Positions 40,201 through 43,200 of a DNA stretch of 64,000 nt are shown in pieces (the first letter of the stretch is position 1; each line of letters starts with the position of its first letter). The position numbers were made by a program. The DNA is from Escherichia coli (GTDB taxonomy: Bacteria > Pseudomonadota > Gammaproteobacteria > Enterobacterales > Enterobacteriaceae). Where the stretch lies: the NCBI RefSeq assembly GCF_003334765.1, contig NZ_QOWT01000003.1. The stretch is one strand, 5' to 3'.

Positions 40201-43200
40201 CGTCGGTGGTGGTCGCGAAAGTCATTTTTTCGCCGATGGCATTTTTCAGGTGCTCAAATGACAGCGTTTCGATATCAAGATGATATTTTTCACACAATAA
40301 TTGAGCGATGGCGTACGCACCGCCAAGCATTTTGAAGGCGTTCAGACCGAATCGTTTTGATTCGTCTTTGACGAGAATTTTCTTCACACCAAAAAGGTTT
40401 GCGAGATCGTCCAGCGCACAAAGCGGTGTTGGGCGATAACCAGCTATTTTCTGGTGGAACTGGCGCGCCAGTTTGGCCTGGCTTTGCGAAAAGAGCGGTG
40501 ATGTTTCGCCGTTGAAAAATTTGTTATCGGCGATATCAATCTTCAATGAGAAAACGGACATATCCTATCCTTTTGGCCTCTGGAAATAGAGGGCCGACCA
40601 GCTGATCGGCCCGAGGGGTTATTTCACGCGTTCTTGCGCTTCTTTCAGCAGTTGCTCGAGCAGTGCACCTGGTTTGGCGTATTTACGGGACAGGATCATC
40701 GCGGCGATGATATAAGGCTTCCAGCTGGCTTCTTTGTAGGTAGCGATACGGTATTTTTCGAATACGCCTTCAGTCACTTCACCTTCTTTACAGGATACGC
40801 CGCTGATATCAGCTGGCAGGCAGTGCATGTACAGGGCTTCGCCATCACGGGTCAGTTCCATCATCTCTTCAGTACAATGCCAGTCTTTGTGTTGCGCGTT
40901 CTGTGCCAGACACTGTTTTTCCAGTGCTTTTAAGCCTTCGTGATCGTTCGCACGCAGCAATTCAGTACGCTCTTCCATCACTTTGTAAGGTGCCCATGAC
41001 TTCGGATAAACGATGTCTGCGTCTTTGAAGGCTTCTTCCATGCTGGTGACCTGACGGAAGCTACCACCGGAGGCTTTAGCATTGTTTTTCGCCACTTCAA
41101 CCACATCCGGGATCAGGTCGTAGCCTTCCGGATGGGCCAGGGTGACATCCATACCGAAGCGAGTCATCAGACCGATGATGCCTTGTGGTACAGAGAGCGG
41201 TTTGCCATAGCTTGGAGAGTAGGCCCAGGTCATGGCGATTTTTTTACCTTTCAGGTTTTCCAGTGAACCAAAGTGTTCACGTAACCACGCGAGGTCAGCC
41301 ATTGACTGAGTCGGGTGGTCAATATCGCATTGCAGGTTCACTAAAGCCGGACGCTGTGGCAGTACACCCTGCTTGTAACCGTCATCAAGTGCAGCGCCAA
41401 CTTCACGCATATAGGCGTTGCCTGCGCCCAGATACATATCGTCGCGAATACCAATAGCGTCGGCGCAGAAGGAGATCATATTGGCGGTTTCACGCACGGT
41501 TTCGCCGTGAGCGATTTGTGATTTGCCTTCGTCGAGATCTTGTTGTGCAAGGCCGAGCAGGTTAAGCGCGGAAGCATAAGAGAAGCGGGTACGGGTGGAG
41601 TTGTCGCGGAATACGGAAATACCTAATCCACTATTAAAGACTTTGGTTGAGATGTTTTCAGCACGCAGTGCTTTTAATGCTGCGGCAACGTCCAGTACTT
41701 GTTTCAGTTCATCTGGCGTCTGTTCCCACGTTAACAAAAAATCTTTCTCGTGAAGGTGAGAGGTCAGCGAATTGATATCCTTAATCAGCTCATTAACAGT
41801 TTTCATCATAAAGTCCCGGTAGTGGAATGACAGGCAAAGTGGTTTATTTCACTGTGACTTGCCAAAGTGATTGGTGTTTTCACAGCTATACCTGGGACTA
41901 ACAATAAGTGTGCCAGAATTATCCGCGCGGCTGCAAAAGACTAATTTGACGGATAATGTGTGGGGTTGATCACAAATTGATGCCAGCTTCTGGTTGTTTG
42001 TAAAATACGAAAACGTTTGGCTTTTTTTATCGCGTTATTTATTTGCTGCTAAGTATCAGAAATAAGATAAAGGGGCAGGCTATCTCTCTTCAGTTTGATA
42101 AACTCACCGCCGTAATTCTCATATTGATATAGAAATGTGATATCTCTTCCATAATTTCATTAGAAAATGATAAAAATCTTATGTTTTTATCAAAGCCAAT
42201 TTCGCCTGAGTTAATATCATCATGATCTGTGAACCATCAACGTCTTCAATGATCGACTTTTAAGTAAGTCTGGAAGGTAAAGCTATGGAGCTTGCTACTA
42301 CGCAGTCAGTATTGATGCAAATTCAACCGACAATTCAGCGTTTTGCCAGAATGCTTGCCAGCGTTTTGCAGCTTGAGGTTGAGATCGTTGATGAAAACTT
42401 GTGTCGCGTTGCCGGAACGGGCGCGTATGGGAAGTTTCTTGGTCGCCAGTTGAGCGGCAACTCACGCCTGCTCCGCCACGTCCTGGAAACGAAAACTGAA
42501 AAAGTTGTGACACAGTCTCGCTTCGATCCCCTTTGCGAAGGTTGCGATAGTAAAGAAAATTGCCGCGAAAAAGCATTTCTGGGTACGCCTGTCATTTTAC
42601 AGGATCGTTGTGTTGGGGTGATAAGTTTGATTGCCGTTACCCACGAGCAACAAGAGCATATCAGTGATAATTTACGCGAATTTTCTGATTATGTTCGCCA
42701 TATATCCACCATTTTTGTTTCGAAACTTCTGGAGGATCAGGGGCCAGGAGATAACATCAGTAAAATATTTGCGACCATGATCGATAATATGGATCAGGGC
42801 GTATTAGTTGTAGATGATGAAAATCGGGTTCAGTTTGTTAATCAGACTGCCTTAAAAACACTTGGTGTTGTGCAAAATAATATTATTGGGAAACCTATCC
42901 GTTTCAGACCATTAACATTTGAGAGTAATTTTACCCATGGACATATGCAGCATATTGTTTCATGGGACGATAAAAGTGAATTAATCATTGGTCAATTGCA
43001 TAACATTCAGGGCCGACAATTATTTTTAATGGCGTTTCACCAATCGCATACCAGTTTTTCTGTAGCAAATGCACCTGATGAACCGCATATTGAACAATTG
43101 GTTGGCGAGTGCCGTGTTATGCGGCAATTAAAACGACTCATTAGCCGTATTGCACCCAGCCCATCCAGCGTTATGGTGGTTGGTGAAAGCGGCACGGGTA

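What the first reader, a model, noticed from the sequence alone, without database searches (positions are those of the whole stretch)
41901..41915. Candidate sigma-54 promoter for the ygeW-dpaL-ygeY-hyuA-yqeA operon next to its divergent activator gene ygeV
The minus strand reads TGGCAC-ACTTA-TTGT about 100 bp upstream of ygeW. This is a near-consensus -24/-12 element with one mismatch at the -12 GC. The divergent ygeV encodes a sigma-54 enhancer-binding protein with intact GESGTGKE and GAFTGA motifs. A dedicated activator beside a sigma-54 promoter would place this cryptic operon under an unknown effector signal.
Basis: partly seen in the sequence, partly recalled or inferred. Interest (0 to 1): 0.5.

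Follow-up and report, generated by a model that had tools for sequence, protein, structure and literature searches.

The report
Known sigma-54 promoter of ygeW operon
The motif is a real sigma-54 promoter for the E. coli ygeW operon, now known to help break down uric acid; sigma-54 binding there was published in 2015, so the finding is correct but not new.

Summary
TGGCACACTTATTGT lies on the minus strand at 41915..41901, 92-106 nt upstream of the ygeW ATG. The divergent ygeV has intact GESGTGKE and GAFTGA motifs.

The same 17-mer (CTGGCACACTTATTGTT) is site OS30 in the sigma-54 ChIP-seq of Bonocora 2015. RpoN holoenzyme also binds this spacer in gSELEX (Shimada 2021). The promoter had been predicted in 2001 and 2011.

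New here:
- A matrix built from 38 other ChIP-supported sites ranks this element first in the 64 kb window.
- The element, including the unusual -12 T, is conserved in Citrobacter, Raoultella and Klebsiella spacers that are otherwise about 50% identical.
A TATCA-N3-TGAkA palindrome lies 130-235 bp upstream of all four sigma-54 promoters of the cluster (ygeW, xdhA, ygfK, ygfT).
- That palindrome matches the motif predicted for DioR, the clostridial YgeV homologue.
- CRP-like sites lie between enhancer and promoter.

The operon is no longer cryptic: it encodes late steps of reductive uric acid degradation. YgeV dependence, the start site and the effector remain untested.

The parts
41900..41916 (-). 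Sigma-54 -24/-12 promoter element CTGGCACACTTATTGTT. GG is at 41914-41913 and the -12 'GT' at 41902-41901.
   Evidence: Sequence. Top matrix hit in the window. Identical to ChIP-seq site OS30. Conserved as TGGCAYRCTTATTGT in L087, L080, L081, L082 and L086, and as TGGCGCACTAATTGC in L084.
41810..41889 (-). Predicted 80-nt leader. The start site is inferred at 41889, 12 nt downstream of the -12 base.
   Evidence: Inferred from element geometry; matches the 'Distance 80' of Bonocora Table 1. No significant RNA structure (z = -0.2) and no Rfam match.
41959..41974 (-). CRP-like core TGTGATCAACCCCACA (9 of 10 core positions), centred at -77.5 from the predicted start.
   Evidence: Aligned as yGTGA-N6-T/C-n-r/t-CA in all orthologous spacers. 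A 'native Crp-binding site' in this spacer is mentioned in PMC12507026 without coordinates. CRP binding was not tested.
42114..42132 (.). Candidate YgeV enhancer site (UAS): AATTCTCATATTGATATAG, core TCTCA-TAT-TGATA, centred at -234.
   Evidence: The exact 12-mer CTCATATTGATA occurs only 3 times in the window, each upstream of a sigma-54 site. Second-best hit in 64 kb of a matrix built only from clostridial DioR sites (17.0 bits). Conserved at -234 to -238 in orthologues, -213 in L084. Invariant in four divergent E. coli strains.
42096..42102 (+). Conserved TGATAAA half-site (TTTATCA on the ygeW strand, about -210), about 20 bp promoter-proximal of the UAS.
   Evidence: Conserved in all 7 aligned spacers. 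Weak DioR-matrix hit at -205 (5.5 bits).
42133..42148 (+). Second CRP-like core TGTGATATCTCTTCCA (8 of 10) next to the UAS. It is part of a roughly 45-bp conserved block and may serve the ygeV promoter.
   Evidence: Invariant within E. coli. Function is inferred only.
42215..42227 (+). UAS-like TATCATCATGATC about 60 bp upstream of the ygeV ATG, overlapping a conserved TAATAT/TAGTAT -10-like hexamer.
   Evidence: Possible autoregulation site or the ygeV -10; not resolved.
42285..44063 (+). ygeV (isrR): sigma-54 enhancer-binding protein with GAF, PAS, AAA+ and HTH_8 domains.
   Evidence: Translation. Pfam. GAF fold of residues 1-152. RefSeq annotation.
40619..41809 (-). ygeW (knotted carbamoyltransferase), first gene downstream of the promoter.
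35678..40561 (-). Co-oriented downstream genes ygeX/dpaL (39365..40561), ygeY (38096..39307), hyuA (36658..38055) and yqeA (35678..36610).
   Evidence: ORFs. Same gene order in orthologous loci. Functions from PMC12507026.
38059..38078 (-). GC-rich hairpin CCCTCCGGTTCGCCGGAGGG followed by TTTTT, between ygeY and hyuA. Possible partial terminator or mRNA stabiliser.
   Evidence: The hairpin is kept with different stem sequences in L081, L082, L084 and L087.
40591..40612 (-). GC-rich hairpin between ygeW and ygeX, with no clear U-tail.
47821..47837 (-). xdhA sigma-54 element CTGGCGTAAATCTTGCC, same regulon. Its UAS pair lies at 47935-47947 and 47953-47971 (centres -131 and -152).
   Evidence: Bonocora OS29..
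32084..32100 (-). ygfK sigma-54 element GTGGTGCGATTGTTGCT. Its UAS CATTATCATAATGATAAGG lies at 32266-32284 (centre -202). A perfect CRP core TGTGAGTTCATTCACA is centred at -97.5.
   Evidence: Bonocora OS31.. The UAS is conserved in L082, L083 and L084.
17077..17093 (+). ygfT sigma-54 element TATGCCCGTTTATTGCA. Its UAS TTTTCTCATATTGATATTT lies at 16896-16914 (centre -199).
   Evidence: Bonocora OS32..

Best explanation
The element at 41916..41900 (minus strand) is the sigma-54 promoter of the ygeW-ygeX-ygeY(-hyuA-yqeA) transcription unit of E. coli.

Proposed mechanism:
1. Sigma-54 RNA polymerase sits on the -24 GG / -12 GT element as a closed complex. Binding is shown in published ChIP-seq and gSELEX.
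2. It cannot open the DNA by itself.
3. YgeV, encoded divergently, binds a TATCA-N3-TGAkA palindrome about 235 bp upstream. This step is inferred from sequence and comparative genomics.
4. YgeV assembles when its GAF/PAS sensor region receives an unidentified signal linked to anaerobic urate use.
5. It contacts the polymerase by DNA looping, possibly helped by a bend at the CRP-like site centred at -77.5. It then uses ATP hydrolysis and its GAFTGA loop to open the promoter.
6. Transcription is predicted to start near 41889, giving an 80-nt leader.

The same enhancer motif lies upstream of the xdhA, ygfK and ygfT sigma-54 promoters. YgeV would therefore co-ordinate the whole reductive uric acid degradation cluster as one regulon. 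It would be the enterobacterial counterpart of the clostridial DioR regulon.
For: Shown in the literature:
- Sigma-54 ChIP-seq site OS30 carries the identical 17-mer oriented to ygeW.
- RpoN holoenzyme gives a gSELEX peak in this spacer.
- A sigma-54 promoter here was predicted by Reitzer & Schneider 2001 (cited) and Francke 2011.
- ygeWXY, hyuA, xdhABC, ygfK-ssnA-ygfM-xdhD, ygfT and uacT co-vary as the 'YgeV iModulon'.
- ygfT expression fell in a ygeV mutant (DeLisa, cited).
- ygeV is involved in anaerobic urate consumption (Iwadate & Kato, cited).

Shown here:
- Best sigma-54 matrix hit in the window.
- The element is conserved in spacers that are otherwise 43-51% identical (71% for L087). 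One orthologue restores the canonical -12 GC.
- The confirmed promoters pspA and pspG also have TTGT at -12.
- YgeV has all the domains of an enhancer-binding protein.
- The exact 12-mer CTCATATTGATA occurs three times in 64 kb, each 100-210 bp upstream of a ChIP-supported sigma-54 site.
- TATCA-N3-TGATA with at most one mismatch occurs 8 times against 2.4 expected.
- A matrix built only from clostridial DioR sites (Nie 2019 supplement) puts its top three hits in 64 kb on the ygfT, ygeW and ygfK upstream regions.
- The UAS position is conserved in orthologues.
- In Sedimentibacter, the YgeV homologue sits next to ygeX-ygeW-ygeY-ygfK-yqeA-ssnA. The spacer there has TTGGCACAAGTTTTGC plus three TTATCA-N3-TGATAA sites.
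- That homologue's HTH segment, LGIGIATLYRK, is identical to YgeV's.
Against: - I found no paper showing that ygeW transcription needs rpoN or ygeV, and no mapped start site.
- ChIP occupancy was low (fold-above-threshold 3, against 21 for pspA and 201 for hypA).
- The -12 C is replaced by T.
- The UAS centre at -234 is farther upstream than many enhancer sites, and only one strong site is present at ygeW.
- YgeV binding to the palindrome is untested.
- The YgeV iModulon is almost always silent in 1035 RNA-seq samples, so activity has rarely been observed.
- The CRP-like sites are consensus matches only. The one at -77.5 could equally serve a ygeV promoter.
Confidence: 0.8

Rival explanations
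1. Sigma-54 polymerase binds here but the site is mainly a poised or repressive roadblock. Productive ygeW transcription would come from another promoter, for example a CRP-dependent sigma-70 promoter.
For: - Low ChIP signal (fold-above-threshold 3).
- Non-consensus -12 base.
- Shimada 2021 discuss 'repressive' RpoN promoters.
- CRP-like sites are present in the spacer.
- A published strain design treats a Crp site as the native control element.
Against: - The consensus scan finds no usable sigma-70 promoter on the ygeW strand in the spacer. The only hit (41833..41805) overlaps the start codon.
- The -24/-12 element is the best conserved block near ygeW across genera.
- Clostridial homologous operons are also predicted to be sigma-54 driven.
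Confidence: 0.1
2. The promoter is sigma-54 dependent but is activated by a different enhancer-binding protein. On this view YgeV's adjacency is incidental, and the TATCA palindrome binds another factor.
For: - YgeV-DNA binding has never been shown.
- Kumar 2022 link YgeV/IsrR to indole and LEE virulence genes rather than purines.
Against: - The regulator, the palindrome and the sigma-54 promoters travel together in Enterobacteria and Firmicutes.
- The HTH segment LGIGIATLYRK is identical between E. coli and Sedimentibacter.
- Iwadate & Kato report that ygeV is involved in urate consumption (cited).
Confidence: 0.07
3. [quoted passage not shown]
For: As a bare pattern it is not rare: 30 of 100 shuffled windows contain one.
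Against: - ChIP-seq and gSELEX binding.
- Top matrix rank in the window.
- Conservation across genera in an otherwise diverged spacer.
- Correct orientation and distance to ygeW.
Confidence: 0.02

Closest known systems
Sigma-54 binding site OS30 (ygeW) of Bonocora et al. 2015, PLoS Genet (PMC4591121)
   Same: It is the same object: identical 17-mer CTGGCACACTTATTGTT, same strand relative to ygeW, listed distance of 80 nt to the gene start.
   Different: The paper reports binding only. It gives no activator, enhancer site, start site or conservation detail for this site. In its table the EcoCyc column is blank for this site.
E. coli pspA and pspG sigma-54 promoters
   Same: Confirmed sigma-54 promoters that also carry TTGT instead of TTGC at -12: TTGGCACGCAAATTGTA and TTGGCATGATTCTTGTA.
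   Different: They are activated by PspF, which has no sensor domain. Their regulon and enhancer sites are different.
DioR regulon of Clostridiales (Nie et al. 2019, PMC6615313)
   Same: - A sigma-54 activator controls dpaL(ygeX), ygeW-ygfK-ssnA-ygeY, yqeB and xdh operons.
- Its predicted UAS is TTATCA-N3-TGATAA. One C. botulinum site, ATTTATCATAATGATAAGG, matches the E. coli ygfK site over TTATCATAATGATAAGG.
- Full-length YgeV homologues (about 36% identity) sit in such clusters.
   Different: - It is a computational reconstruction in Firmicutes. Nothing I read in that paper (the DioR passages and supplement sites) deals with E. coli YgeV.
- E. coli sites often have one degenerate arm (TCTCA). 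E. coli has one or two sites per promoter rather than two or three.
- I did not compare YgeV directly with the C. botulinum or C. difficile DioR proteins.
Divergent activator / sigma-54 operon pairs in E. coli such as prpR-prpBCDE, norR-norVW and hycA/hypA with FhlA
   Same: - A one-component enhancer-binding protein with an N-terminal ligand-sensing domain is encoded next to its target sigma-54 promoter.
- Enhancer sites lie in the shared spacer (established knowledge; sites listed).
   Different: - A different sensor domain (GAF with an invariant Cys triad, plus PAS).
- A different enhancer motif.
- Four promoters spread over 30 kb.

Membership tests
Sigma-54 (-24/-12) promoter | GG at -24 and GC at -12 with 10-nt spacing (TGGCAC-N5-TTGC) | tested here: met
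   TGGCAC-ACTTA-TTGT has correct spacing, with GG and G(-13) present and C(-12) replaced by T. It scores 15.97 bits against a median of 16.8 for 38 verified sites. The same deviation occurs in pspA and pspG.
Sigma-54 (-24/-12) promoter | Bound by sigma-54 holoenzyme | not testable with these tools
   Reported by others: ChIP-seq OS30 and gSELEX peak at 53-55%.
Sigma-54 (-24/-12) promoter | Intergenic, oriented towards a gene at a plausible distance | tested here: met
   Minus strand, the same as ygeW. The predicted start is 80 nt upstream of the ATG at 41809.
Sigma-54 (-24/-12) promoter | Transcription depends on rpoN and an ATP-hydrolysing activator, with a start about 12 nt downstream of the -12 element | not testable with these tools
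   No experiment found in the searchable literature.
Sigma-54 (-24/-12) promoter | Conserved in orthologous regulatory regions | tested here: met
   TGGCAYRCTTATTGT in L087, L080, L081, L082 and L086; TGGCGCACTAATTGC in L084. The spacers are otherwise 43-51% identical, 71% for L087. GG and TTGT are invariant in four divergent E. coli strains.
Bacterial enhancer-binding protein (YgeV) | AAA+ sigma-54 interaction domain with Walker A and GAFTGA, plus a C-terminal HTH | tested here: met
   GESGTGKE and GAFTGA. PF00158 with E = 2e-70 and HTH_8 with E = 3e-13.
Two-component response regulator (as YgeV/IsrR is called in Kumar 2022) | N-terminal receiver domain (PF00072) with a phospho-acceptor Asp | tested here: not met
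   No receiver domain was found. Residues 1-152 model as a GAF fold (pLDDT 90) and match GAF domains of NifA, Nlh1 and Nlh2. PAS lies at 162-205.
DioR-type regulon (Nie 2019) | UAS TTATCA-N3-TGATAA 130-390 bp upstream of sigma-54 promoters of ygeW/ygeX/ygfK/xdh genes | tested here: met
   A matrix built from clostridial sites puts its top three hits in the window on the ygfT, ygeW and ygfK upstream regions; xdhA ranks 7th. Centres are at -234, -202, -199 and -152/-131.
DioR-type regulon (Nie 2019) | Regulator homologous over its full length, including the sensor domain, and encoded next to uricolytic genes | tested here: met
   36% identity over residues 10-585 with the Sedimentibacter homologue encoded beside ygeX-ygeW-ygeY-ygfK-yqeA-ssnA. 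No direct comparison was made with the DioR proteins named in the paper.
CRP-regulated promoter | TGTGA-N6-TCACA site at a functional position, with CRP binding and cAMP dependence | tested here: inconclusive
   Cores of 9/10 at -77.5 (ygeW) and 10/10 at -97.5 (ygfK). Only 5 cores of 9/10 or better occur in 64 kb. Partly conserved. Binding is untested. A Crp site is mentioned in PMC12507026 without coordinates.

The most novel reading that the evidence does not exclude
YgeV is the enterobacterial orthologue of clostridial DioR. It would bind a TATCA-N3-TGAkA enhancer upstream of four sigma-54 promoters (ygeW, xdhA, ygfK, ygfT). The whole reductive uric acid pathway of E. coli would then be one sigma-54 regulon.

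Regulator, binding motif and promoters would have been inherited as a single module shared between Firmicutes and Enterobacteria. The signal would be read by a GAF domain carrying an invariant C-x2-C-x5-C-x-E signature, possibly a metal or redox-sensitive ligand site. CRP would add catabolite control.

In the papers I could search, no one has assigned these E. coli enhancer sites or this sensor signature.
Probability: 0.65. Interest if true: 0.4.

Novelty: already known. Interest (0 to 1): 0.2.

Why it matters
The ygeW operon and its neighbours encode the anaerobic uric acid degradation pathway of gut bacteria. That pathway is being engineered into probiotic E. coli for gout, and one published strain replaces part of this very spacer with constitutive promoters.

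The natural control logic matters for understanding when gut E. coli consume urate and for rational strain design. That logic comprises the sigma-54 promoter, the YgeV enhancer sites, the possible CRP input and the unknown effector.

The promoter itself adds nothing new. The enhancer-site map and the sensor-domain signature give concrete, cheap experiments to identify the YgeV regulon and its signal.

Tried and rejected
- **Genome scan for orthologues.** It returned no close orthologue. I recovered orthologous spacers through the search for homologous proteins with the N-terminal 272 residues plus look-up of encoding contigs. The scan still yielded the clostridial and Sedimentibacter loci used later.
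- **Leader RNA.** The fold is not better than shuffles (z = -0.2) and there is no Rfam hit. An apparent pairing between AGTCCCAGG and CCGGGACT was dropped because the first arm lies upstream of the predicted start.
- **IHF.** No WATCAR-N4-TTR match lies between UAS and promoter at any of the four promoters.
- **Sigma-70 promoter for ygeW.** The only consensus hit overlaps the start codon.
- **Possible uacT sigma-54 element.** CTGGCACTCCACGAGCA at 16788..16772 (minus strand) is not among the top 25 matrix hits. It lies about 300 bp from the ChIP peak assigned to ygfT, so it is not supported.
- **DioR-like hit inside yqeC (33656-33674).** I saw no sigma-54 element between it and yqeB.
- **Literature access.** Reitzer & Schneider 2001 (PMC99035) could not be opened. 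One literature search timed out.
- **NCBIfam.** No equivalog model reaches its cutoff for YgeV.
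Full report
**Observation**

The window is E. coli chromosome. The spacer is 100% identical to K-12 MG1655 and present in 5181 of 5426 complete genomes. On the minus strand, 41915..41901 reads TGGCAC-ACTTA-TTGT; the 17-mer is CTGGCACACTTATTGTT at 41916..41900. ygeW (40619..41809, minus strand) begins 92 nt downstream of the motif. ygeV (42285..44063, plus strand) is divergent across a 475-bp spacer. YgeV contains GESGTGKE and GAFTGA. Pfam finds a sigma-54 interaction domain, an AAA lid and HTH_8.

**Is it more than chance?**

The bare pattern is not rare. 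There is one match in 64 kb against 0.33 expected, and 30 of 100 shuffles have at least one. The consensus with one mismatch gives 2 matches against 3.35 expected.

I built a weight matrix from the 38 intergenic ChIP-seq sigma-54 sites of Bonocora 2015 that lie outside this window. The ygeW element scores 15.97 bits against a training median of 16.8. It is the best of all positions on both strands, 3.2 bits above the next. Shuffles give 0.26 such sites per window. Scaling that to one 475-bp spacer in one orientation gives about 0.001 (my arithmetic).

**Already known**

- The identical 17-mer is entry OS30 in Table 1 of Bonocora et al. 2015. The entry gives the ChIP-seq peak, orientation to ygeW (b2870), a listed distance of 80 nt to the gene start and a fold-above-threshold of 3.
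- Shimada et al. 2021 found an RpoN holoenzyme gSELEX peak in the ygeV/ygeW spacer at 53-55% of the strongest peak.
- Lamoureux et al. 2023 cite Reitzer & Schneider 2001 for sigma-54 promoters upstream of xdhABC and ygeWXY. They also define a 'YgeV iModulon'.
- Francke et al. 2011 also predicted a sigma-54 promoter at b2870.
- The T at -12 has precedents in the confirmed pspA and pspG promoters.

The finding therefore rediscovers a published site.

**Conservation (new here)**

I recovered orthologous ygeV-ygeW spacers from six sources:
- a Citrobacter MAG (L087)
- Raoultella (L080)
- Klebsiella grimontii (L082)
- three metagenomic contigs (L081, L084, L086)

The spacers are only 43-51% identical to E. 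coli (71% for L087), so they are essentially unalignable. Even so, TGGCAYRCTTATTGTTAG is retained, including the -12 T. L084 has TGGCGCACTAATTGC, with the canonical GC. In four divergent E. coli strains, 34 of 475 columns vary. Only two conservative changes touch the element (C to T at position 6 and one spacer base), and GG and TTGT are invariant.

**Enhancer sites (new here)**

The exact 12-mer CTCATATTGATA occurs three times in the window, where a given 12-mer is expected about 0.008 times. The copies are at 16900, 42118 and 47946. Each lies 100-210 bp upstream of a ChIP-supported sigma-54 site: ygfT OS32, ygeW OS30 and xdhA OS29. The ygfK promoter (OS31) has TTATCATAATGATAAGG.

The common core is an inverted repeat, TATCA-N3-TGAkA. 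With at most one mismatch it occurs 8 times against 2.4 expected, and no shuffle reaches 8. In the orthologous spacers the block containing this site is the other conserved island. Its centre stays at -234 to -238 from the predicted start, or -213 in L084. The ygfK site is likewise conserved in L082, L083 and L084.

**Link to clostridial DioR**

Nie et al. 2019 reconstructed a sigma-54 regulon 'DioR' in Clostridiales. It covers dpaL, ygeW-ygfK-ssnA-ygeY, yqeB and xdh operons. Their supplement lists UAS sites such as ATTTATCATAATGATAAGG and AATTCTCGTATTGATAAAA.

A matrix built only from 17 of those clostridial sites is independent of E. coli. Its three best hits in the 64-kb window fall on the ygfT (19.4 bits), ygeW (17.0) and ygfK (16.2) upstream regions. 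The xdhA site ranks seventh. The chance that three top hits all fall within 200-bp zones upstream of four promoters is about 2e-6 (my arithmetic).

Full-length YgeV homologues of about 36% identity sit in uricolytic clusters of Sedimentibacter and Clostridium thailandense. The Sedimentibacter spacer holds TTGGCACAAGTTTTGC and three TTATCA-N3-TGATAA sites, including TTATCAATATGATAA and TTATCATATTGATAA. Its regulator has the same HTH segment, LGIGIATLYRK, as YgeV.

I infer that YgeV is the DioR counterpart and that the palindrome is its enhancer. No binding experiment exists.

**Other elements**

- A CRP-like core, TGTGATCAACCCCACA (9 of 10), is centred at -77.5 of the ygeW promoter. It is kept as yGTGA-N6-T/C-n-r/t-CA in the orthologues.
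- ygfK has a perfect core at -97.5. Weaker TCACA-containing sites lie near -68 at xdhA, ygfK and ygfT.
- A 2025 paper mentions a native Crp site in this spacer without giving coordinates.
- No IHF consensus was found.
- CRP might supply the bend for looping, or catabolite control, or serve the ygeV promoter instead. This is open.

**The regulator**

YgeV has no receiver domain. Residues 1-152 model confidently (pLDDT 90) as a GAF fold resembling the GAF domains of the sigma-54 activators NifA, Nlh1 and Nlh2. A PAS domain follows. The label 'orphan response regulator' used when it was renamed IsrR does not fit. It is a one-component sensor-activator.

Ten homologues at 27-92% identity share invariant C84-x2-C87-x5-C93-x-E95. 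Two Anaerovorax paralogues, which show no match to the uricolytic proteins in their loci, lack it.

**Function and operon**

The genes are no longer cryptic. HyuA, YgeW (with carbamate kinase YqeA), YgeY and YgeX carry out the late steps of reductive uric acid degradation to pyruvate and ammonia.

The five genes are co-oriented with gaps of 40-57 nt. Three of the four intercistronic gaps (ygeW|ygeX, ygeX|ygeY and ygeY|hyuA) hold a GC-rich hairpin whose stem sequence differs between genera while pairing is kept. The one before hyuA is followed by TTTTT. The literature speaks of 'ygeWXY'. Whether hyuA-yqeA are read through is untested.

**Verdict**

The added value is the cross-genus conservation, the assignment of DioR-type enhancer sites to all four sigma-54 promoters of the cluster, the CRP-like sites and the sensor-domain signature. 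Together these make YgeV's regulon and effector directly testable.

Noticed in passing
window 16896-16914, 32266-32284, 47935-47947, 47953-47971: DioR-type palindromes (TATCA-N3-TGAkA) lie 130-200 bp upstream of the ygfT, ygfK and xdhA sigma-54 promoters. xdhA has two sites 21 bp apart. The E. coli ygfK site matches a C. botulinum DioR site over 17 nt.
   Followed up: yes
window 42161-42169 and 42269-42277 (loci L089, L088): A few complete E. coli genomes (6 of the 8 best-scoring records listed, out of about 5190 matching genomes) carry IS1 or IS903B inserted in the ygeV-proximal part of the spacer. IS1 is 116-124 bp upstream of the ygeV ATG and IS903B is 8-16 bp upstream. Both leave the ygeW promoter and UAS intact but cut ygeV off from its upstream region.
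   Followed up: partly
window 42285-42740 (YgeV residues 1-152): The N-terminal domain is a GAF fold with an invariant C84-x2-C87-x5-C93-x-E95 signature. The signature is shared with homologues in uricolytic clusters and absent from two Anaerovorax paralogues. YgeV has no receiver domain, although it has been called an orphan response regulator.
   Followed up: partly
window 40591-40612, about 39320-39350, 38059-38078 (all minus strand): The ygeW|ygeX, ygeX|ygeY and ygeY|hyuA gaps each hold a GC-rich stem-loop. The stem sequences differ between E. coli, Citrobacter and Klebsiella-group loci while pairing is kept. Only the hairpin before hyuA has a T-run.
   Followed up: partly
window 41959-41974, 42133-42148, 32163-32178: CRP-like cores: 9/10 at -77.5 of ygeW, 8/10 beside the UAS, and a perfect TGTGAGTTCATTCACA at -97.5 of ygfK. 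Weaker TCACA half-sites lie near -68 at xdhA, ygfK and ygfT.
   Followed up: partly
window 33656-33674 and 40273-40285: The fourth-best DioR-matrix hit (TTTTCTCAATGTGAGAATG) lies inside yqeC, about 160 bp before yqeB, and I saw no sigma-54 motif between it and yqeB. A perfect TATCAAGATGATA lies inside ygeX.
   Followed up: partly
window 16772-16788 (minus strand): CTGGCACTCCACGAGCA points towards uacT, about 70 nt before its ATG. It has a consensus -24 and a GC at -12 but scores poorly. It is about 300 bp from the published ChIP peak.
   Followed up: partly
window 35440-35677: Downstream of yqeA, two identical copies of the hairpin GGCCGGGTGGGTAATACCATCCGGCC flank REP-like repeats. The second copy is followed by ATTTTCATTT and is terminator-like.
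   Followed up: no
L001 9600-10005 (Citrobacter werkmanii): A YgeV paralogue (38% identity) is divergent from ygeX-like and ygeY-like genes. The spacer has a sigma-54-like element TGGTAAGCATTTTGC and TTATCA-containing sites. This looks like a smaller sister system with the same architecture.
   Followed up: partly
L083 9700-10000: In this Logan contig the PALP gene (ygeX homologue) abuts an N-terminally shortened ygeV call. No ygeW and no recognisable spacer are present, which suggests a deletion. The ygfK upstream TATCAAATTGATA site is retained at about 1738-1750.
   Followed up: no
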